A stretch of DNA of 64,000 nt from Escherichia coli (lineage in GTDB: Bacteria; Pseudomonadota; Gammaproteobacteria; Enterobacterales; Enterobacteriaceae): assembly GCF_003018115.1 (NCBI RefSeq), contig NZ_CP027457.1. The stretch is one strand, 5' to 3'. The position numbers and the translations under genes were made by a program. This document shows positions 1 through 9,418 of this stretch, piece after piece. Each line of letters starts with the position of its first letter. Position 1 is the stretch's first letter. The notes under the pieces are model-generated. The model was not told the origin of the DNA. It did no database searches and saw only the letters and a program-made list of their open reading frames with translations.

Positions 1-989
1 TCGCAGAGCACTTTATTCCGTTCCTCAACGACCATATCAAGCCATTACTGGTAGGCCGCGATGTGGATGCTTTCCTGCCGAATGCCCGTTTCTTCGACAA
101 ATTGCGTATTGACGGCAACTTGCTGCATACCGCCGTGCGCTACGGATTATCACAGGCGCTGCTTGATGCTACCGCGCTGGCAACCGGCCGTCTGAAAACT
201 GAAGTGGTCTGTGATGAATGGCAGTTGCCACGCGTGGCGGAATCCATTCCATTATTTGGTCAGAGCGGCGACGATCGATATATCGCCGTCGATAAGATGA
301 TCCTTAAGGGCATCGACGTGCTGCCCCATGCGCTGATTAATAACGTCGAAGAGAAGCTGGGCTTTAAAGGTGAAAAACTGCGCGAATATGTCCGCTGGTT
401 GTCGGATCGCATTCTAAGCAAGCGCACCAGCGCACGCTACCACCCTACCCTGCACATCGATGTATACGGCACTATCGGTCTGATCTTCGATATGGATCCG
501 CTTCGCTGTGCGCAATACATCGCCAGCCTGGAAAAAGAAGCGCAAGGCCTGCCGCTCTACATTGAAGGGCCGGTCGATGCCGGTAACAAGCCCGACCAAA
601 TTCGCCTGCTGACCGCGATTACCAAAGAGCTGACGCGCCTCGGTTCCGGCGTGAAAATTGTGGCCGATGAATGGTGTAACACCTACCAGGATATTGTTGA
701 TTTCACTGATGCCGCCAGTTGTCACATGGTGCAAATCAAAACCCCGGATCTGGGCAGTATTCACAACATCGTCGATGCGGTTCTTTACTGCAATAGCCAC
801 AGCATGGAAGCGTACCAGGGCGGCACCTGCAATGAAACTGATGTCAGTGCCCGCACCTGTGTCCACGTCGCCCTTGCCGCTCGCCCTATGCGTATGCTGG
901 TAAAACCAGGGATGGGCTTTGACGAAGGCCTCGATATCGTCTTCAACGAAATGAATCGTACTATCGCGCTGTTGCAGGCTAAGGATTAA
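1..989 (+). CDS. 3-methylaspartate ammonia-lyase (methylaspartase), C-terminal ~330 codons; 5' end lies outside the window
   Basis: Frame (phase from base 3) is open from the window edge to the stop at 987-989. Translation carries methylaspartase/enolase-superfamily signatures LPHALINNVEEKLG, HIDVYGTIG, ADEWCNT, HMVQIKTPDLG, GGTCNET, KPGMGxDEG, matching clostridial methylaspartase as I remember it. Confidence 0.85.
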   Translation, partial: AEHFIPFLNDHIKPLLVGRDVDAFLPNARFFDKLRIDGNLLHTAVRYGLSQALLDATALATGRLKTEVVCDEWQLPRVAESIPLFGQSGDDRYIAVDKMILKGIDVLPHALINNVEEKLGFKGEKLREYVRWLSDRILSKRTSARYHPTLHIDVYGTIGLIFDMDPLRCAQYIASLEKEAQGLPLYIEGPVDAGNKPDQIRLLTAITKELTRLGSGVKIVADEWCNTYQDIVDFTDAASCHMVQIKTPDLGSIHNIVDAVLYCNSHSMEAYQGGTCNETDVSARTCVHVALAARPMRMLVKPGMGFDEGLDIVFNEMNRTIALLQAKD

Positions 990-992
990 CAA

Positions 993-2363
993 ATGGCTCG
1001 TTCTTTTAAAGTCTTATCGCCAACGGCAATCCTCGGGTATGGATTCCCGGAAGAGAGCTTCCGCAAAGCGATGGCAGAATCGCCCGATCTGATCGCCGTT
1101 GATGCAGGCTCTTCCGATCCAGGCCCCCACTACCTCGGGGCAGGCAAACCGTTTACCGATCGCGCAGGGGTCAAGCGCGATCTGCGCTATATGATCACCG
1201 CAGGCGTGCAAAATAATATACCGGTGGTGATCGGAACGGCTGGCGGTTCTGGTGCCGCACCACACCTGGAGTGGTGCCGAGAAATAATTCATGAGATTGC
1301 CCTGGAAGAGCAACTCGCGTTCTCCATGGCGTTGATCCCGGCAGACGTTGACAAAGCCATCGTCCACCAGGCGCTGGATAACGGCAAAATCACGGCGCTG
1401 GATTTTGTCCCGCCGTTAACCCACGACGCGATTGACGAAAGTACGTATATCGTTGCGCAAATGGGCATCGAACCCTTCCAGCGGGCGCTGAAAGAAGGCG
1501 CGCAAGTGGTGCTGGGCGGGCGCGCTTACGACCCGGCCTGCTTTGCTGCGCTACCGATCATGCAAGGCTTTGATGAAGGTCTGGCGCTGCATTGTGGGAA
1601 AATCCTTGAATGCGCGGCAATCGCCGCAACGCCCGGCTCAGGCTCTGACTGTGCGATGGGCATCATTGATGACAACGGCTTTACGCTGAAGACATTTAAT
1701 CCGAAGCGTAAATTTACCGAAACGTCAGCAGCTGCACACACACTGTATGAGAAATCCGATCCCTACTTCCTGCCAGGACCTGGCGGCGTGTTGAACCTGA
1801 AAGGCTGCACATTTAAAGCAGTCAATGACGGCGAAGTCTACGTCAGCGGTTCTAAGCATGAAGAAACGCCGTATGCCCTGAAACTGGAAGGTGCACGACG
1901 GGTGGGCTTCCGCTGTCTGACCATCGCCGGAACGCGCGACCCGATTATGATCGCCGGGATCGATAAAATCATCGATGAAGTCAAAACCAGCGTTTCGCGT
2001 AACCTGTCGCTCGACGATGACAGCATTCGCATCAATTTCCACCTGTACGGCAAAAACGGGGTGATGGGAGACCATGAACCGATGCAAACTGCCGGGCATG
2101 AGCTGGGGATTGTCCTTGATGTAGTTGCACCGACCCAGGAAATTGCCAATAGCGTTTGCTCGCTGGTGCGCTCTACCATGCTGCACTACGGCTATGAAAA
2201 CCGCATCGCTACCGCAGGCAATCTGGCGTTCCCGTTCTCCCCTTCTGATATCCAGGGCGGGCCGGTATACGAATTTTCCATATATCACCTGATTGAAGCC
2301 AACGACGCTCTGCGTTTTGATTTCCATATTGAACAGGTGACGCCAGAAGGAGTTCAGGCATGA
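993..2363 (+). CDS. hypothetical protein, 456 aa; tentatively DUF1446/AtuA-like
   Basis: ATG at 993 with AAGGA about 7 nt upstream, starting 4 nt after the methylaspartase stop. Long ORF with normal composition. Family assignment is from memory only and unverified. Confidence 0.6.
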   Translation: MARSFKVLSPTAILGYGFPEESFRKAMAESPDLIAVDAGSSDPGPHYLGAGKPFTDRAGVKRDLRYMITAGVQNNIPVVIGTAGGSGAAPHLEWCREIIHEIALEEQLAFSMALIPADVDKAIVHQALDNGKITALDFVPPLTHDAIDESTYIVAQMGIEPFQRALKEGAQVVLGGRAYDPACFAALPIMQGFDEGLALHCGKILECAAIAATPGSGSDCAMGIIDDNGFTLKTFNPKRKFTETSAAAHTLYEKSDPYFLPGPGGVLNLKGCTFKAVNDGEVYVSGSKHEETPYALKLEGARRVGFRCLTIAGTRDPIMIAGIDKIIDEVKTSVSRNLSLDDDSIRINFHLYGKNGVMGDHEPMQTAGHELGIVLDVVAPTQEIANSVCSLVRSTMLHYGYENRIATAGNLAFPFSPSDIQGGPVYEFSIYHLIEANDALRFDFHIEQVTPEGVQA

Positions 2364-2677
2364 AACAGTCAATTGTCTCACTGGCGCAAGTCATTCGTTC
2401 GAAAAATGCCGGACCTTACGAACTGGTTTTAGATATTTTATTTAAAACGAAAGAAAACTATGAGCGAGTTAAATCATCAGGGCAATTAACCCCAGAACTG
2501 ATTGCGCGCTTATATCATGTTGAACCTGACTTTATTCATCGTATTGTCTGGTTTGATCCTTCTAACGCAGTAAAAATCGTCATGCCACGAGATATTATCT
2601 CCGGGAATGTAGGTGACAATGATGTCTATGGTGCACAGCAACATGCACCTTTATTAAATATGAGTTTCGATTTGTAA
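2360..2677 (+). CDS. small hypothetical protein, 105 aa; tentatively the DUF4387-like partner of the preceding ORF
   Basis: Start overlaps the upstream stop (ATGA, 2360-2363), indicating translational coupling. Family assignment unverified. Confidence 0.55.
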   Translation: MKQSIVSLAQVIRSKNAGPYELVLDILFKTKENYERVKSSGQLTPELIARLYHVEPDFIHRIVWFDPSNAVKIVMPRDIISGNVGDNDVYGAQQHAPLLNMSFDL

Positions 2678-2760
2678 AAATCCGAATACTTTTAGCCAAC
2701 TGACATCCCGTCACTTATTGCAGTTCAACACTTCAGCTATTTGTAAGGTTGTAATAGCAG

Positions 2761-2792
2761 GTAGATGCCTGAATCTCTATTCAGGCATCTAC
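2761..2792. promoter_or_regulatory. perfect palindrome (14-bp arms, 4-nt loop) GTAGATGCCTGAAT-CTCT-ATTCAGGCATCTAC; possible intra-operon attenuator, RNA processing site or protein-binding site
   Basis: Read directly from the sequence, between the small ORF stop (2677) and the transporter start (2838). No clean T-run follows it. Confidence 0.4.
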
Positions 2793-2837
2793 TTCTCCTG
2801 ATTCTGATTTATCGCCGTGCACCTGATGGAGGAAAAA

Positions 2838-4118
2838 ATGAAGAAAATAAGTTTAACCACGATGATTCTTTTGGCGCTGGTACTTGGAATGATTATCGGC
2901 GTAGTGCTCAATAACACTGCTTCACCGGAAACCGCAAAACTCTATGCGCAAGAAATATCGATATTCACGACGATTTTCTTACGACTGATAAAAATGATTA
3001 TCGCTCCGTTAGTGGTCTCTACCCTGGTGGTAGGTATTGCTAAAATGGGCGATGCCAAAGCCCTTGGTCGTATTTTTTCTAAAACACTTTTTTTATTTAT
3101 TTGCGCCTCATTGCTGTCAATTGCCTTAGGCTTGATAACGGTAAATTTCTTCATGCCAGGCACAGGAATTAATTTTGTTGCACACGGTGCCGAAACCACA
3201 GGAGTGGTCGCGTCAGAACCCTTTACGCTAAAAGTATTTATTTCGCATGCTTTCCCCACCAGCATTGTCGATGCCATGGCGCACAATGAAATTTTGCAAA
3301 TCGTGGTGTTCTCAATTTTCCTCGGCTGTAGCCTGACGGCGATTGGCGAGAAAGGCAGCGCCATCGTTCACGCCTTAGATTCGCTGGCACATGCCATGTT
3401 AAAGCTCACTGGCTACGTCATGCTCTTCGCTCCCCTGACCGTATTCGCCGCTATTTCAGCATTGATTGCTGAACGAGGACTGGCCGTTATGGTGAGCGCC
3501 GGGATCTTTATGGGTGAATTTTATTTCACCATGTTATTACTTTGGGTGCTGCTTATCGGTCTGGCCATCGTTTATGTCGGCCCCTGCATCAGACGCCTGA
3601 CCCGCGCCCTTTCGGAACCCGCCCTGCTGGCATTTACCACATCCAGTTCTGAAGCGGCTTTTCCGGGAACGCTTGAAAAACTGGAGCAATTTGGCGTTTC
3701 CCCCAAAATTGCCAGCTTTGTCTTACCCATTGGCTACTCATTTAATCTCGTTGGATCAATGGCCTACTGCTCCTTCGCCACAGTTTTCATCGCCCAGGCC
3801 TGCAATATCCATTTATCCATCGGTGAACAAATCACCATGCTGTTGATCCTGATGTTGACCTCGAAAGGAATGGCTGGCGTACCACGCGCCTCAATGGTGG
3901 TTATCGCCGCCACGCTCAACCAGTTCAATATTCCGGAAGCGGGGCTGATCTTGCTGATGGGCGTTGATCCGTTCCTTGATATGGGGCGTTCCGCGACAAA
4001 CGTCATGAGCAACGCAATGGGCGCTGCGATGGTGAGTCGGTGGGAAGGCGAACATTTCGGCGAGGGCTGTCGGGGTAAAGCATTAAAACCCAATGAATCG
4101 AACGTTGCTCTGCCCTGA
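2838..4118 (+). CDS. dicarboxylate/amino acid:cation symporter (DAACS family, DctA/GltP-like), 426 aa
   Basis: ATG at 2838 preceded by GGAGG. Highly hydrophobic multi-helix protein with DAACS-like segments; the longer ORF from 2817 is probably an upstream extension. Confidence 0.8.
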   Translation: MKKISLTTMILLALVLGMIIGVVLNNTASPETAKLYAQEISIFTTIFLRLIKMIIAPLVVSTLVVGIAKMGDAKALGRIFSKTLFLFICASLLSIALGLITVNFFMPGTGINFVAHGAETTGVVASEPFTLKVFISHAFPTSIVDAMAHNEILQIVVFSIFLGCSLTAIGEKGSAIVHALDSLAHAMLKLTGYVMLFAPLTVFAAISALIAERGLAVMVSAGIFMGEFYFTMLLLWVLLIGLAIVYVGPCIRRLTRALSEPALLAFTTSSSEAAFPGTLEKLEQFGVSPKIASFVLPIGYSFNLVGSMAYCSFATVFIAQACNIHLSIGEQITMLLILMLTSKGMAGVPRASMVVIAATLNQFNIPEAGLILLMGVDPFLDMGRSATNVMSNAMGAAMVSRWEGEHFGEGCRGKALKPNESNVALP

Positions 4119-4225: not shown

Positions 4226-5878
4226 ATGTCCAAACCATTTATCTGGCAAGAACCGTTTCTACAAAATAAAGACGGTACAGAATATACATTAATTAGCGAT
4301 CAGCATATTACAGTAACGGAATTAGACGGCGAAGAAGTGATAAAAATCGCTCCTGAAGCATTAACGCTGCTTGCCCGGCAGGCATTTTATGAAGCCTCTT
4401 TTTTCTTACGTTCCGCTCATTTGCAACAGGTCGCCAGCATTCTTAACGATCAGCAGGCCAGTAGTAATGATAAATACGTTGCGTTGCAGTTATTACGTAA
4501 TGCTGAAGTCTCAGCAAAAGGGGTATTACCCAACTGTCAGGATACCGGCACCGCAACTATTGTTGCCAGTAAAGGGCAACAGATATGGACCGGAGGTAAC
4601 GACGCTGAAGCCTTAAGCAAAGGCATTTACAGTACTTTCCAGGAAAATAATCTGCGCTTTTCACAAAATGCGCCGCTGGATATGTATACCGAAGTCAATA
4701 CGCAAACCAATCTCCCGGCGCAGATTGATATCAGCGCTGTCGCTGGTGATGAGTACCATTTTCTCTGTGTTAATAAAGGGGGCGGCTCCGCCAATAAAGC
4801 CGCGCTTTATCAGGAAACCAAATCCTTATTGCAACCAGAAAAACTGACCGCATTTTTAATCGAAAAAATGAAATCGCTGGGCACCGCTGCCTGCCCGCCT
4901 TACCACATCGCCTTTGTCGTCGGAGGGCTTTCAGCCGATCAAACCTTAAAAGTTGCCAAGCTGGCCTCAACGAAATATTACGACAATTTGCCCACCAGCG
5001 GAAACGAGCAGGGACAAGCATTCCGTGATATTGAGCTGGAAAAAGCGTTGCTCGAGGCCAGTCAGCAATTTGGTATTGGTGCACAATTTGGGGGGAAATA
5101 TTTCGCTCATGATATTCGCGTCATGCGTCTGCCGCGTCACGGTGGCTCTTGCCCGATAGCTATGGCGCTCTCCTGTTCTGCCGATCGCAATATCAAAGCA
5201 AAAATTAACAAACACGGTATCTGGCTGGAAAAACTCGAACACAATCCGGGGCAATATATTCCAGCCTCATTGCGGGAAGAAAATCACGCGCAACATGTAC
5301 AACTGGATCTAAACCGTCCGTTGCGTGACGTGATGCTGGATCTCGCCAGATTACCGGTAGGCACCCGCGTGTCGTTAAGTGGTCCCATCGTAGTGGCGCG
5401 CGATATCGCCCACGCCAAAATAAAAGCGCGGCTGGATAGCGGCGAATCGATGCCGGAGTACCTGAAGCATCATATTGTCTATTACGCTGGCCCGGCGAAA
5501 ACACCGGAGAACATGGCCTGCGGTTCACTGGGTCCAACCACGGGCGGTCGAATGGACGGTTATATCGATACCTTCCAGGCGGCTGGCGGCAGTCTGGTGA
5601 TGTTATCGAAAGGTAACCGCAGCCAGCAGGTCACCGATGCCTGTCACAAACATGGCGGCTTCAATCTGGGAAGTATTGGCGGTGCTGCTGCGTTACTGGC
5701 GCAAGAATATGTCAAAAGTCTGCGTTGCCTGGAATATCCGGAGCTGGGTATGGAAGCGGTGTGGATGATGGAAGTGGAAAATCTGCCCGCATTCATCCTG
5801 GTAGATGATAAAGGCAATAATTTCTTTAGTCAGTTTGAGCAGCAACACCGCTGCGCCAGTTGCCCTGCGGGACATTAA
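4226..5878 (+). CDS. fumD: class I (Fe-S) fumarate hydratase paralog, 550 aa; candidate mesaconase (FumD-like)
   Basis: Near full-length similarity to E. coli FumA/FumB as I remember them (WQEPF, GVLPxCQDTGTA, [41 protein letters not shown], GSLGPTTxGRMD). The symbol is from my memory of a described O157:H7 mesaconase and is not verified. Confidence 0.75.
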
Positions 5879-6493: not shown

Positions 6494-6520
6494 CTGCGCC
6501 TGGCATCCTGCCAGGCGCAG
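6494..6520. terminator. hairpin CTGCGCCTGGCA-TCC-TGCCAGGCGCAG between convergent genes
   Basis: Perfect 12-bp inverted repeat lying between the adenosyltransferase stop (6490) and the LysR stop (6524), followed by GTTTTA. Confidence 0.5.
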
Positions 6521-6523
6521 GTT

Positions 6524-7429
6524 TTACATCTCCTGCGGTACGACCGATTTCGCCAGCAACCATTCACGAAATTGCTGCAAGTGCGGTGAGTCAGACTTCT
6601 CTTCCTGCCACGTCATAATAAAACGATTACCGGTACGAATAGGCACATCACAGGGGATCACCATATCGCCACTATCCAAATCATGTTGAATAGCGAACCG
6701 TGGTAACAGCGCCACGCCGAGATTAGAGCGCACGGCGGCAATCAGCATTGAAAGCAAATCGAAACGTGGTCCGTTGTTGACCAGCGGACTGCTAACGCCA
6801 GATAAAGCAAACCACTCTTCCCAGCCAGTAATACGGGTGCTTTGATGCAGAAGTGGTAACTCAGTAAGCAGTTCTGCCACTGACAGTTTTTGATCGGACA
6901 TTGCAAGCAAACTGCCGCTGCATACCGGCAAAATCTCCTCATCAAAGAGATATTCTACTTCCGCCCAGGGCGCGCAAAAATTTTCGCGCATAATGACAGC
7001 ATCGTACTCCCGATTAAGAAAATCGCCGTTATTAGCTAAAGAATGAATATTAACAATAATATCGGGATGTAACTTTGTGAATTCATGTAAATTTGGGATC
7101 AACCAGTGGGTACTAAAAGTAGGATTAACGGCAAGTTCAATAACCTGAACCGTAGGCTGCCAGGTCATAATGGTATTGGTATCGCGTTCCAGCTTATTTA
7201 ATGTTTCTTTTACTATCCCCAGGTAATACTTCCCTGCATCATTAAGAAAAATGCGTTTTTTAGAGTGTGAAAATAACGGAGTACGTAAAAATTCCTCCAG
7301 CGCACTTACTTGTCTGAATACTGCACTTTGGGTTAACGCTAACTCCTCTGCCGCTCTGGTATAACTTTCATGACGTGCGACGACCTCAAAAGTCACCAGC
7401 AGTTCCGTTTTAGGTATTTTCCCTCGCAT
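6524..7429 (-). CDS. LysR-family transcriptional regulator, 301 aa
   Basis: N-terminal HTH region (LTQSAVFRQVSALEEFL) and the usual ~300 aa length. Convergent with the pathway operon. Confidence 0.85.
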   Translation of the reverse strand: MRGKIPKTELLVTFEVVARHESYTRAAEELALTQSAVFRQVSALEEFLRTPLFSHSKKRIFLNDAGKYYLGIVKETLNKLERDTNTIMTWQPTVQVIELAVNPTFSTHWLIPNLHEFTKLHPDIIVNIHSLANNGDFLNREYDAVIMRENFCAPWAEVEYLFDEEILPVCSGSLLAMSDQKLSVAELLTELPLLHQSTRITGWEEWFALSGVSSPLVNNGPRFDLLSMLIAAVRSNLGVALLPRFAIQHDLDSGDMVIPCDVPIRTGNRFIMTWQEEKSDSPHLQQFREWLLAKSVVPQEM

Positions 7430-8194
7430 AATGCCTTCCGTGAAAAAAATAACAATTCAAAAAATTATTTTATAAAAAATAGTAGTGCTAATGAATATCA
7501 TAATTCAAATAAACAAACCAGTCAGCTATATGTCCAACCAGAAAAATAAAGTGACAATAATCCTAAAACAGAAATTTCACCTCAGTTATCCGCATGCAAT
7601 ACTTTAAAGCTATTATTGCAAGAATATTATTCATATACATGAATATACTCTAAATAACTCGAGTTGCAGGAAGGCAACAAATAATGAATTTCCAGAAACT
7701 TACATAAGTCAGTGGCCAGGGTGAGCGAACATCGATGCAGAACATGCAACTTGAAGTATGACAAGTATACAATGATAAATTTAGATACCCTATGTTATAT
7801 ATTATCTATGTCTGGTTAAATTGAATGAGTCATGGCCTTAAAAGACTTCGCAAAAGATAATTTCTCTTTAACAATAAGCCAGATTTACCACTTGTAAAAA
7901 TTGCTATCGCCACATACACTACGCGCGTTTTCTTTCCCTTTTGCTGGCTGCTGACCGGAAAGACAAAATTACCCTCGCAATACAGGGGGTTTTTTAACGT
8001 CTATATTTCAGGACAGCGTTATTCATCATCTTTCAAGGCTTGATAAAGCCTTTCTGCGCAAAGGGATCCAACTTTCCCGCGCCAACAATATTGTTTCATT
8101 ATCTCGTCCATCTGGTGCCAGTGCCCGCGTACTGCTGCCGGACGAACTACCGCTGGAAGAAAAAGCAGTAACACAACTGCTTGATTTTGCAGAA

Positions 8195-9418
8195 GTGAAG
8201 CTACCAGACCACCCAGGTTATGTGCGCCAGACGTGCGCGACGCCAGATTTTCACCCCGGCAATGGCGTCCCCGTTGGCGCGGTGGTGGCCTCAACGCCGG
8301 ATTTAGTCATTCCCGCCGCCATCGGCACCGATATTTCTTGCGGCATGCGGCTGCTAACGACTGGATTAACACTTGAGCAAGCCGAAGCGAATAAAGACGT
8401 CATCACTCAGCGGTTAACGCAAGTGCTACTGCAAAATGAGCGCGATGTTCCGTTATCCGCACAAGCGTTCACTGCGCTTTTTGATGGCGGACCGGCAGAT
8501 TACGTATCGACCTTGCCATCAGCAGGTCTCTGGACACGCACGAATATCCCCCGAATGGTACAAGAGATTGACCGCTGCATTGGGCTTAACGAGCATAACA
8601 GTCATTCGCGTTATGCCCCACCCGCCCTACTGGCAACGGACCGCGCATTACTCCGCGATCCTTGTCTGGGTACGCCAGGTTCAGGTAATCATTTTATTGA
8701 ACTTCAGGTGGTTGATAGCGTGGTCGATCGCCATGTGGCCTGGCAACAAGGGCTGAAAACGGGCGATATCGTGGTGATGATCCACAGTGGATCGCGAGAT
8801 GTCGGCTTTTACGTCGGACGACGCTGGATGGACCGTGCCCGTGCTGAATGGCCCGCCGGGCATAAACACCCACAAAGCGGGTTATATGGTCTGGCTGGTG
8901 GACTGGCGGAGGAATATCTACAAGCGATGGGAATGGCGGCGCGTTACGCATGGTTAAATCGCGTGACCATTGCGGAAATGGTTCGCGTATGTTTTGCCGA
9001 TTTATTTCATCAGGATGATTCACATCTGGTGGTGGATGTGCCGCATAACATCATCCTTCGCGAACATGAAATGAATATTCATCGCAAAGGTGCAACACCG
9101 GCACACGCGGGCGCTCTGGCATTAATCCCCGGTTCAATGGGCGATTATACGTGGCTTGCGGTAGGTTGCGGCAACTCGGAGTGGTTGTGGTCATGCAGTC
9201 ATGGAGCAGGACGCAGCCAGCGTCGGCAGGCGATGCGCTCACGCGCGACTGAAGAGTCAACGCTGCCGTGGCAATGCGTCACATTGCGTGAAGAACGACG
9301 TCTTGAAGAAGCGCCAGCTGCTTATAAAGATATTGCTCCGGTTATCGAAGCCCAACAAGAAGCCGGATTGATTCAGCCTGCGGTCAGATTACGACCGTGG
9401 TTAACGTTTAAGGGGTAA
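8195..9418 (+). CDS. RtcB-family RNA ligase homolog, 407 aa from the first canonical start (GTG at 8195)
   Basis: RtcB motifs DISCGM, GSGNHFIE, HSGSRDVG, HRKGAT, SCSHGAGR. The frame stays open for 80 codons upstream (7955-8194) with no ATG, GTG or TTG, so the true start is uncertain. Confidence 0.8.
   Translation: MKLPDHPGYVRQTCATPDFHPGNGVPVGAVVASTPDLVIPAAIGTDISCGMRLLTTGLTLEQAEANKDVITQRLTQVLLQNERDVPLSAQAFTALFDGGPADYVSTLPSAGLWTRTNIPRMVQEIDRCIGLNEHNSHSRYAPPALLATDRALLRDPCLGTPGSGNHFIELQVVDSVVDRHVAWQQGLKTGDIVVMIHSGSRDVGFYVGRRWMDRARAEWPAGHKHPQSGLYGLAGGLAEEYLQAMGMAARYAWLNRVTIAEMVRVCFADLFHQDDSHLVVDVPHNIILREHEMNIHRKGATPAHAGALALIPGSMGDYTWLAVGCGNSEWLWSCSHGAGRSQRRQAMRSRATEESTLPWQCVTLREERRLEEAPAAYKDIAPVIEAQQEAGLIQPAVRLRPWLTFKG

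What the first reader, a model, noticed from the sequence alone, without database searches (positions are those of the whole stretch)
993..2677. Two translationally coupled ORFs of unknown function inside the methylaspartate operon
A 456-aa ORF starts 4 nt after the methylaspartase stop, and a 105-aa ORF overlaps its stop (ATGA). Both are therefore almost certainly co-translated with the pathway genes, yet neither matches any enzyme of the canonical methylaspartate route (mutase, methylaspartase, mesaconase, citramalate lyase). My tentative family guess is a DUF1446/AtuA-like protein with a DUF4387-like partner, a pair with no assigned biochemistry. By operon context they could supply the unassigned step of the pathway in this host, for example handling of citramalate or mesaconate, or an accessory function for the B12 enzyme. 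That is inference, not observation.
Basis: partly seen in the sequence, partly recalled or inferred. Interest (0 to 1): 0.6.

Follow-up and report, generated by a model that had tools for sequence, protein, structure and literature searches.

The report
Known two-subunit citramalate lyase CmlAB
These two overlapping E. coli genes encode the close counterpart of a recently crystallised two-subunit citramalate lyase (CmlAB), so they supply the missing last step of the glutamate-to-pyruvate-plus-acetate pathway, and that enzyme has already been found by others.

Summary
A 456-aa ORF (993..2363) starts 3 nt after the methylaspartase stop. A 105-aa ORF (2360..2677) overlaps its stop in ATGA. Both have Shine-Dalgarno sequences.

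The family guess is right: Pfam AtuA/DUF1446 (E 3.4e-18) and DUF4387 (E 2.9e-39). "No assigned biochemistry" is out of date. PDB entries 9ERQ and 9EVF (released October 2025) hold proteins 92% and 84% identical. They are named "Citramalate lyase, subunit A (cmlA)/subunit B (cmlB)". One was solved with AMPPNP and citramalate, the other with ADP and pyruvate. A 2026 preprint uses Raoultella planticola cmlAB in vivo to cleave citramalate to pyruvate and acetate.

My AlphaFold model of the fused pair (pLDDT 92.9) superposes on the crystal chains (TM 0.98).

Among the 80 closest loci from many phyla:
- cmlB follows cmlA in 79.
- Methylaspartase lies directly upstream in 69.
- No CitDEF-type lyase gene lies nearby, apart from one weak CitE-like match.
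- Several loci couple cmlAB only to a class I fumarase (mesaconase).

It is unrelated in sequence to the classical enzyme and has no other solved fold relative. It is already known, although RefSeq, Pfam and NCBIfam do not yet name it. The role of the bound nucleotide remains open.

The parts
1..989 (+). 3' part of the methylaspartate ammonia-lyase gene (mal). The window starts inside the gene.
   Evidence: RefSeq annotation of a 100% identical genome; ORF ending with TAA at 987-989.
979..983 (+). Shine-Dalgarno-like AAGGA for cmlA, inside the last codons of mal.
   Evidence: Sequence read; function inferred.
993..2363 (+). cmlA, the large subunit of citramalate lyase (456 aa, AtuA/DUF1446 family).
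2345..2351 (+). Shine-Dalgarno-like GAAGGAG for cmlB, inside the 3' end of cmlA.
   Evidence: Sequence read; function inferred.
2360..2677 (+). cmlB, the small subunit of citramalate lyase (105 aa, DUF4387). Its start overlaps the cmlA stop (ATGA).
2760..2793 (+). Perfect 15-bp hairpin in the cmlB-gltP spacer. It may be a partial terminator or an mRNA-stabilising element.
   Evidence: RNA fold of 2675-2840: -42.3 kcal/mol, z -2.8. No clean T-run follows. Function not tested.
2838..4118 (+). Dicarboxylate/amino acid:cation symporter (GltP-like), the presumed glutamate importer.
   Evidence: RefSeq annotation; named GltP, glutamate transporter, in PMC4682846 Fig. 5 legend.
4226..5878 (+). fumD, a class I fumarase/mesaconase that makes (S)-citramalate from mesaconate. 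It supplies the substrate of CmlAB.
   Evidence: RefSeq annotation; FumD of E. coli O157:H7 characterised as a mesaconase in PMC4682846.
5888..6490 (+). cobO, a corrinoid adenosyltransferase that supplies the coenzyme B12 form needed by glutamate mutase.
   Evidence: RefSeq annotation.
6494..6520 (+). Terminator-like hairpin (12 pairs, 9 of them G-C) closing the operon.
6524..7429 (-). Convergent LysR-family regulator gene, the candidate regulator of the operon.
   Evidence: RefSeq annotation; called a putative regulator (LTTR) in PMC4682846.

Best explanation
ORF 993..2363 and ORF 2360..2677 are cmlA and cmlB. They are the two subunits of a CoA- and acyl-carrier-protein-independent (S)-citramalate lyase, and they finish the methylaspartate route encoded by this E. 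coli island.

The pathway reads as follows:
1. Glutamate is imported by the GltP-like carrier.
2. Glutamate mutase GlmS/GlmE rearranges it. GlmL reactivates the mutase and CobO supplies adenosylcobalamin.
3. Methylaspartase deaminates the product to mesaconate.
4. FumD hydrates mesaconate to (S)-citramalate.
5. CmlAB splits the C2-C3 bond to give pyruvate and a C2 unit that ends up as acetate.

The large AtuA-type subunit and the small DUF4387 subunit form one unit. This follows from the crystal entries holding both chains, the confident fused model, and natural single-chain fusions in the family. The enzyme binds an adenine nucleotide together with its substrate or product.

What is shown and what is inferred:
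- Shown by others for a 92%/84% identical orthologue: the subunit composition and the ligands citramalate, pyruvate, AMPPNP and ADP. Shown for the R. planticola cmlAB genes: citramalate-lyase-dependent growth in vivo.
- Inferred here: the E. coli pair does the same job. This rests on near-identity, model superposition and conserved gene order.
- My inference only: ATP takes part in catalysis, most plausibly by transiently phosphorylating the C4 carboxylate. The leaving group would then be an acyl-phosphate enolate, and ATP would be recovered through acetate kinase. I give this about 0.35. The alternative, that the nucleotide is not consumed and acts as a cofactor or effector, is about equally likely.
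For: - PDB 9ERQ/9EVF chains A and B match both ORFs over their full length (E 4.7e-292 and 5.2e-57). They are named citramalate lyase subunit A (cmlA) and subunit B (cmlB).
- The entry titles are 'Citramalate lyase - AMPPNP - citramalate complex' and 'Citramalate lyase - ADP - pyruvate complex'.
[quoted passage not shown] Growth on mesaconate was lost when the plasmid was cured, and label from mesaconate reached leucine via acetyl-CoA.
- PMC4682846 reported that the fate of citramalate in E. coli O157:H7 was unknown. Cell extracts grown on citrate, acetate or propionate showed no citramalate lyase activity. The paper also noted a DUF1446 gene downstream of mal.
- In the 80 closest loci from many phyla, cmlB follows cmlA in 79, mal is directly upstream in 69 and glmE is present in 61.
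- No CitD/CitE/CitF homologue lies in the up to 10 kb of flanking DNA held for any locus, apart from one weak CitE-like match.
- cmlAB sits next to only a class I fumarase in L084/L085, L072 and L093.
- Natural single-chain AtuA+DUF4387 fusions exist.
Against: - No enzyme assay or mutant exists for the E. coli proteins in any source I could search.
[quoted passage not shown] They detected no citramalate lyase activity in extracts, but none of the growth conditions tested induced the operon.
- The primary paper describing CmlAB was not found in the library. The activity claim therefore rests on PDB names and titles and on one preprint that used the enzyme as a gift.
- The tools did not show the source organism of the PDB entries.
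- The role of the nucleotide is not stated in any text I could read, and the preprint never mentions ATP.
- Acs up-regulation was observed in the evolved strains, and no pta or ackA deletion is listed for them. This speaks weakly for free acetate rather than acetyl phosphate as the released product.
Confidence: 0.88

Rival explanations
1. The pair is an accessory factor for the B12-dependent glutamate mutase (protection, reactivation or cofactor handling) and is not a pathway enzyme.
For: It sits in an operon with glmS, glmL, glmE and cobO. It binds an adenine nucleotide, as many reactivases do.
Against: The crystal ligands are citramalate and pyruvate. GlmL (MutL) is already the annotated accessory protein in the operon. 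cmlAB occurs with only a class I fumarase and with no mutase or methylaspartase in the DNA held in L084/L085, L072 and L093. cmlAB alone gave citramalate-lyase-dependent growth in an E. coli laboratory strain; to my own knowledge K-12 derivatives lack glutamate mutase.
Confidence: 0.02
2. The pair works like Pseudomonas AtuA in acyclic terpene catabolism. [quoted passage not shown]
For: Pfam places the large subunit in the AtuA family. PMC4847356 lists AtuA as the tentative lyase for that step.
Against: The Pfam score is modest (66 bits). No atu partner genes (geranyl-CoA carboxylase, AtuD, AtuE) lie in the island. The Thauera AtuA in PMC4847356 is 615 aa, the size of the single-chain fusions found, whereas this pair is split. 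The 92% identical orthologue was crystallised with citramalate.
Confidence: 0.02
3. The genes are intact but physiologically silent or decaying in E. coli. They would be a relic of a horizontally acquired island, so no function is exercised in this host.
For: The island is present in only about a fifth of complete E. coli genomes. Kronen and Berg found no condition that induced the cluster and no anaerobic growth on glutamate. To my own knowledge, E. coli cannot make B12 de novo.
Against: Both ORFs have the same full lengths as the crystallised orthologues (456 and 105 aa). The 7.5-kb region is 95-100% identical and at least 80% complete in 1118 genomes. Ribosome-binding sites and the coupling overlap are preserved. 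The operon carries its own transporter, adenosyltransferase and regulator genes.
Confidence: 0.08
4. The large ORF is a second methylaspartate ammonia-lyase, as several database records name it.
For: Some NCBI and nr records label close homologues '3-methylaspartate ammonia-lyase'.
Against: Pfam finds only AtuA and no MAAL_N or MAAL_C domain. PMC4682846 already notes that this label is given 'for unknown reason'. I read it as a label carried over from the neighbouring gene.
Confidence: 0.01

Closest known systems
CmlAB citramalate lyase (PDB 9ERQ and 9EVF; cmlAB of Raoultella planticola used in preprint 10.64898/2026.01.16.699985)
   Same: Same two-gene layout and same lengths (456 and 105 aa). 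92% and 84% identity. The model superposes on the crystal at TM 0.98. Same operon context, as seen in enterobacterial loci L002-L020, L022 and L027.
   Different: Different host species. No assay, expression data or mutant for the E. coli proteins. The tools did not show the source organism of the PDB entries.
Classical citramalate lyase of Clostridium tetanomorphum (EC 4.1.3.22; CitD/CitE/CitF-like complex with an acyl-carrier prosthetic group)
   Same: Same overall reaction, (S)-citramalate to pyruvate plus acetate, and the same place at the end of the methylaspartate pathway (PMC4682846).
   Different: No sequence relationship was found. Two subunits instead of three. No citC/citX/citG activation genes in the operon. 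It binds an adenine nucleotide instead of using an acetyl-thioester carrier. The two systems look like analogous, non-orthologous solutions.
Citramalyl-CoA lyase route (succinyl-CoA:citramalate CoA-transferase plus CitE-like lyase)
   Same: It also disposes of citramalate made by mesaconase (PMC4682846 Fig. 2).
   Different: It needs a CoA ester and yields acetyl-CoA. The preprint uses CmlAB for what it calls a CoA-independent route. No CoA-transferase or CitE-like gene lies in this operon.
AtuA of the Pseudomonas/Thauera acyclic terpene utilisation cluster
   Same: Same Pfam families (AtuA plus DUF4387). The step tentatively assigned to AtuA also removes free acetate from a tertiary 3-hydroxy acid. 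That is the same bond-breaking pattern as citramalate cleavage; this parallel is my inference.
   Different: The Thauera AtuA listed in PMC4847356 is 615 aa, the size of the single-chain fusions seen. Its proposed substrate is a CoA ester, its gene neighbours differ, and its function was never proven. PMC4097962 assigns the same step to LiuE.
Isocitrate lyase / methylisocitrate lyase (mechanistic analogy only, from my own knowledge)
   Same: They cleave a hydroxy acid so that a free carboxylate arm leaves without a thioester.

Membership tests
CmlAB-type citramalate lyase (PDB 9ERQ/9EVF) | Large subunit of about 456 aa with an AtuA (PF07287) domain, alignable end to end with CmlA | tested here: met
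   Pfam E 3.4e-18; phmmer to 9erq_A E 4.7e-292 over residues 1-456 of both; 92% identity.
CmlAB-type citramalate lyase (PDB 9ERQ/9EVF) | Small DUF4387 subunit of about 105 aa encoded directly downstream | tested here: met
   Pfam E 2.9e-39; 9erq_B E 5.2e-57; ATGA overlap at 2360-2363; the same arrangement in 79 of 80 related loci.
CmlAB-type citramalate lyase (PDB 9ERQ/9EVF) | Same three-dimensional structure for both subunits | tested here: met
CmlAB-type citramalate lyase (PDB 9ERQ/9EVF) | Gene neighbourhood with the enzymes that make citramalate (methylaspartase, glutamate mutase, class I fumarase/mesaconase) | tested here: met
   Operon glmS-glmL-glmE-mal-cmlA-cmlB-gltP-fumD-cobO. mal is adjacent in 69 of 80 loci and a class I fumarase is present in 47 of 80.
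CmlAB-type citramalate lyase (PDB 9ERQ/9EVF) | Catalyses (S)-citramalate to pyruvate plus acetate | not testable with these tools
   Inferred only, from the orthologue's PDB names and ligands and from preprint 10.64898/2026.01.16.699985.
CmlAB-type citramalate lyase (PDB 9ERQ/9EVF) | Binds an adenine nucleotide next to the substrate | not testable with these tools
   The PDB titles name AMPPNP and ADP. Ligand-contacting residues could not be read without coordinates. Family-wide invariant residues D42, G87 and R177, and the Gly-rich loop 81-GTAGGSGAAPH-91, are candidates only.
Classical CitDEF-type citramalate/citrate lyase | CitE (HpcH/HpaI-like), CitF and CitD acyl-carrier subunits | tested here: not met
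   No such Pfam domains in either ORF. tblastn with E. coli CitD/E/F finds nothing in the window or in the loci, apart from one weak CitE-like match in L073.
Classical CitDEF-type citramalate/citrate lyase | Prosthetic-group genes citC, citX and citG alongside | tested here: not met
   Absent from the operon. In the same genome they lie with citDEF about 110 kb away in the separate citrate lyase cluster.
AtuA sensu stricto (acyclic terpene utilisation) | AtuA Pfam domain | tested here: met
   PF07287, 66.1 bits. The match is modest and covers residues 63-394 only.
AtuA sensu stricto (acyclic terpene utilisation) | Location in an atu cluster with geranyl-CoA carboxylase (AtuC/AtuF), AtuD and AtuE | tested here: not met
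   None of these genes is in the island.
AtuA sensu stricto (acyclic terpene utilisation) | Single chain of about 600 aa carrying both AtuA and DUF4387 | tested here: not met
   Here the two parts are separate genes. Fused forms exist elsewhere in the family, and the Thauera AtuA is 615 aa.
Methylaspartate ammonia-lyase (a frequent database label for this gene) | MAAL_N and MAAL_C domains | tested here: not met
   Only AtuA is found in the 456-aa ORF. The MAAL domains are in the upstream gene.

The most novel reading that the evidence does not exclude
ATP is a true co-substrate. CmlAB phosphorylates the C4 carboxylate of citramalate and cleaves citramalyl phosphate to pyruvate plus acetyl phosphate. 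An acyl phosphate would then replace the thioester used by all classical citrate and citramalate lyases, and ATP would be recovered by acetate kinase.

The same chemistry would apply to the whole AtuA/DUF4387 family (about 2,400 representative clusters). That includes the long-unassigned acetate-releasing lyase step of terpene catabolism and the fungal single-chain fusions.

In most non-enterobacterial lineages an uncharacterised Walker-A protein encoded just after cmlB would be a third component.

The depositors of 9ERQ/9EVF may already know the answer. Nothing I could read states it.
Probability: 0.3. Interest if true: 0.7.

Novelty: already known. Interest (0 to 1): 0.33.

Why it matters
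The pair closes a gap that was explicit in the literature. In 2015 the fate of citramalate in E. coli O157:H7 and other enterobacteria carrying the methylaspartate genes was called unclear (PMC4682846).

The enzyme that closes the gap is unrelated in sequence to the classical citramalate lyase. It needs no CoA or acyl carrier, and no other solved structure shares its fold. The preprint that uses it builds a CoA-independent synthetic pathway around it.

For genome annotation the practical point is this. RefSeq (PGAP), Pfam and NCBIfam still call these genes 'AtuA family' and 'DUF4387', and some records call the large one '3-methylaspartate ammonia-lyase'. As a result the pathway looks incomplete in about a fifth of complete E. 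coli genomes and in many anaerobes from other phyla.

The discovery itself has already been made by others, so this finding is a correct rediscovery, not a new system.

Tried and rejected
- Single-sequence AlphaFold of the 456-aa ORF gave an unusable model (pLDDT 38.6). I replaced it with a fused-pair prediction on a 101-sequence alignment.
- Seven literature searches for the primary description of CmlAB found only the 2015 Kronen and Berg paper and one 2026 preprint that used the enzyme as a gift. The preprint does not mention ATP or acetyl phosphate.
- NCBIfam has no model for either ORF.
- Context look-ups of more distant family members were uninformative. P0146 is a fungal fusion with unrelated neighbours. 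P0125 and P0124 have no pathway neighbours.
- Of the loci with ample upstream DNA and no mal, five showed unrelated neighbours (L024/L082, L063, L073, L075, L077). I therefore do not claim that every close homologue works in the methylaspartate route.
- Model coordinates are not exposed to scripts. I could not measure the subunit interface or locate the ligand pocket.
- I considered and rejected these readings: B12-enzyme accessory factor, terpene-pathway AtuA, and second methylaspartase (see the rival explanations).
Full report
**Where the window comes from.** The first 7.5 kb of the window are 100% identical to several Escherichia coli chromosomes. The region is present in 1128 of 5426 complete E. 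coli genomes. In one identical genome RefSeq annotates the gene order glmS, glmL, methylaspartate mutase subunit E, methylaspartate ammonia-lyase, 'acyclic terpene utilization AtuA family protein', 'DUF4387 domain-containing protein', a dicarboxylate/amino acid symporter, a class I fumarate hydratase and cobO. A LysR-family gene lies convergent to these. The whole block sits between cydA and mngB. The window begins inside the methylaspartase gene.

**The observation.** It is correct.
- The methylaspartase ORF stops at 987-989.
- A 456-aa ORF runs from ATG 993 to TGA 2361-2363.
- A 105-aa ORF starts at ATG 2360 inside ATGA and ends at 2677.
- Each start has a Shine-Dalgarno-like sequence placed inside the preceding gene (AAGGA at 979-983, GAAGGAG at 2345-2351).
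- The tight junctions are conserved. In 78 related loci the cmlA/cmlB junction is the same 4-nt overlap in 36 and is under 25 nt in most others. The mal/cmlA gap is mostly -8 to +18 nt.

Translational coupling is the natural reading of this layout but was not measured.

**Family assignment.** The large ORF hits Pfam AtuA (PF07287, formerly DUF1446) at E 3.4e-18. The small ORF hits DUF4387 (PF14330) at E 2.9e-39. NCBIfam has no model for either. Database names for close homologues are 'AtuA family protein', 'DUF1446 domain-containing protein', 'hypothetical protein' or, wrongly, '3-methylaspartate ammonia-lyase'.

**The decisive result.** A search of PDB sequences shows that both ORFs match chains A and B of entries 9ERQ and 9EVF over their full length (E 4.7e-292 and 5.2e-57). 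The depositors named these chains 'Citramalate lyase, subunit A (cmlA)' and 'subunit B (cmlB)'.

The entry titles came back from the fold searches:
- 9ERQ: 'Citramalate lyase - AMPPNP - citramalate complex', released 2025-10-22.
- 9EVF: 'Citramalate lyase - ADP - pyruvate complex', released 2025-10-08.

Identity to the E. coli proteins is 92% and 84%.

**Literature.** Kronen and Berg (2015, PMC4682846) characterised FumD of this very cluster as a mesaconase. They noted the DUF1446 gene downstream of mal. They showed that extracts grown on citrate, acetate or propionate had no citramalate lyase activity. They wrote that the fate of citramalate 'is still unclear', and they could not induce the cluster.

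[quoted passage not shown] An evolved E. coli acetyl-CoA auxotroph carrying cmlAB grew on mesaconate. Curing the plasmid abolished this growth, and label from mesaconate reached leucine via acetyl-CoA.

I did not find the primary description of the enzyme in the searchable library.

**Comparative genomics.** A scan of one genome per species found at least 573 relatives. I studied the 80 closest (55-93% identity). They span Enterobacterales, Betaproteobacteria, Riflebacteria, Aminicenantes/Acidobacteriota, Lentisphaerae, Spirochaetes, Chloroflexi, several Firmicutes families, Desulfobacterota and Shewanella.

| Feature near cmlA | Loci (of 80) |
|---|---|
| cmlB directly downstream | 79 (the remaining contig ends there) |
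| Methylaspartase directly upstream | 69 |
| Glutamate mutase subunit E | 61 |
| Class I fumarase | 47 |

Of the 11 loci without methylaspartase:
- Four lack upstream DNA.
- Two with ample upstream DNA (L036, L072) carry a class I fumarase next to cmlAB.
- Five have unrelated neighbours.

A 48%-identical pair is likewise followed by a split fumarase. No CitD, CitE or CitF homologue lies in the up to 10 kb of flanking DNA held for any locus, apart from one weak CitE-like match. Kronen and Berg describe clostridial clusters that instead carry citDEF-type genes. This is the pattern expected of two unrelated enzymes doing the same job. The association with mesaconase alone fits an enzyme whose substrate is citramalate. 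It does not fit a helper of the B12 enzyme.

**How it most likely works.** The island encodes the complete methylaspartate route:
1. Uptake of glutamate by the GltP-like carrier.
2. Rearrangement by glutamate mutase, with its reactivase and an adenosyltransferase.
3. Deamination to mesaconate.
4. Hydration to (S)-citramalate by FumD.
5. Cleavage by CmlAB to pyruvate and acetate.

The two subunits act as one unit. Both chains are in the crystal entries, the fused model is confident, and single-chain AtuA+DUF4387 proteins occur naturally.

Residues conserved across the wider family include D42, G87, R177, D180, H200, E206, C207 and E253 in the large subunit. In the small subunit they include R13, K15, N16, K72, R77, Q93, Q94 and H95. 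These are candidates for substrate, metal or phosphate binding. I could not map them onto the ligand sites.

**The nucleotide.** The bound nucleotide was unexpected. The depositors trapped citramalate with a non-hydrolysable ATP analogue and pyruvate with ADP. That suggests ATP takes part in turnover. Chemically this would solve a real problem: a free carboxylate arm is a poor leaving carbanion, whereas an acyl phosphate, like a thioester, stabilises it.

Two points bear on whether ATP is consumed. The preprint's authors expected high acetate to disfavour the cleavage thermodynamically, which argues against net ATP hydrolysis. Acs up-regulation was observed in evolved strains for which no pta or ackA deletion is listed, which weakly favours free acetate as the product.

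I put about 0.35 on transient acyl-phosphate chemistry with ATP recovered by acetate kinase. I put a similar weight on a non-consumed nucleotide cofactor or effector, and little on stoichiometric ATP hydrolysis. All of this is inference.

**Relation to known families.** The pair is a member of the CmlAB type by every feature I could test. It is not a member of the classical CitDEF citramalate lyase family. It is not an AtuA in the strict sense, because it has no atu neighbours and is split rather than fused.

The step tentatively assigned to AtuA is removal of free acetate from 3-hydroxy-3-isohexenylglutaryl-CoA (PMC4847356). PMC4097962 assigns that step to LiuE instead. It has the same bond-breaking pattern as citramalate cleavage: a tertiary alcohol carbon bearing a CH2-COO- arm gives a ketone plus acetate. 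This suggests a family-wide chemistry, which is my inference only.

**Verdict.** The family guess and the 'handles citramalate' guess are right. The claim of no known biochemistry is outdated. The feature is already known through public structures and a preprint, although annotation resources have not caught up. Interest is modest, and the open points are:
- The role of the nucleotide.
- Whether and when E. coli expresses the operon.
- The Walker-A gene that accompanies cmlAB outside the Enterobacterales.

Noticed in passing
L088:11677-12618, L089:11698-12654, L084:11714-12685 and 44 further loci; absent from the window: An uncharacterised gene of about 313 aa with a Walker A motif (GxxGxGKST) lies directly downstream of cmlB in 47 of 59 non-enterobacterial cmlAB loci (45-72% identity across phyla) and in none of 21 Enterobacterales loci. 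Pfam, NCBIfam and PDB recognise only the P-loop. This is of interest because CmlAB itself binds ATP/ADP.
   Followed up: partly
window 2760-2793: A perfect 15-bp hairpin lies in the 160-nt spacer between cmlB and the GltP-like gene. It has no clean T-run after it. It may be a partial terminator or an mRNA-stabilising element that splits the operon into two expression units.
   Followed up: partly
window 8021-9418: An RtcB-family (RNA ligase-like) gene sits in the same strain-variable island between mngB and cydA, next to the LysR gene. No rtcA or rtcR lies beside it in the annotated genome.
   Followed up: no
P0243, P0219, P0245, P0146, P0167 and others; L086:8001-10630: Natural single-chain fusions of AtuA and DUF4387 (about 610-620 aa, some longer) occur in the wider family. 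One is a fungal gene with introns next to a fungal transcription factor. This supports the two E. coli proteins being one functional unit.
   Followed up: partly
L084/L085 (Holophagaceae), L072 (Deltaproteobacteria), L093: cmlAB is followed by a split class I fumarase, with no glutamate mutase or methylaspartase in the DNA held. This looks like a two-enzyme module taking mesaconate to pyruvate plus acetate.
   Followed up: partly
L082/L083 (Accumulibacter), L063 (Desulfospira), L073 (Haliea), L075 and L077 (Shewanella): Close cmlAB homologues (57-68% identity) stand alone among unrelated genes (RNA polymerase, HrpA helicase, efflux pumps). Their source of citramalate, or their true substrate, is unknown.
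   Followed up: partly
database names of P0002, P0060, P0072: Several public records label the AtuA-type subunit '3-methylaspartate ammonia-lyase'. It has no methylaspartase domain, so I read this as an annotation error carried over from the neighbouring gene.
   Followed up: yes
window 6494-6520: A strong G+C-rich hairpin (12 pairs) with a T-tract lies between the end of cobO and the end of the convergent LysR gene. It probably acts as a terminator for the operon.
   Followed up: no
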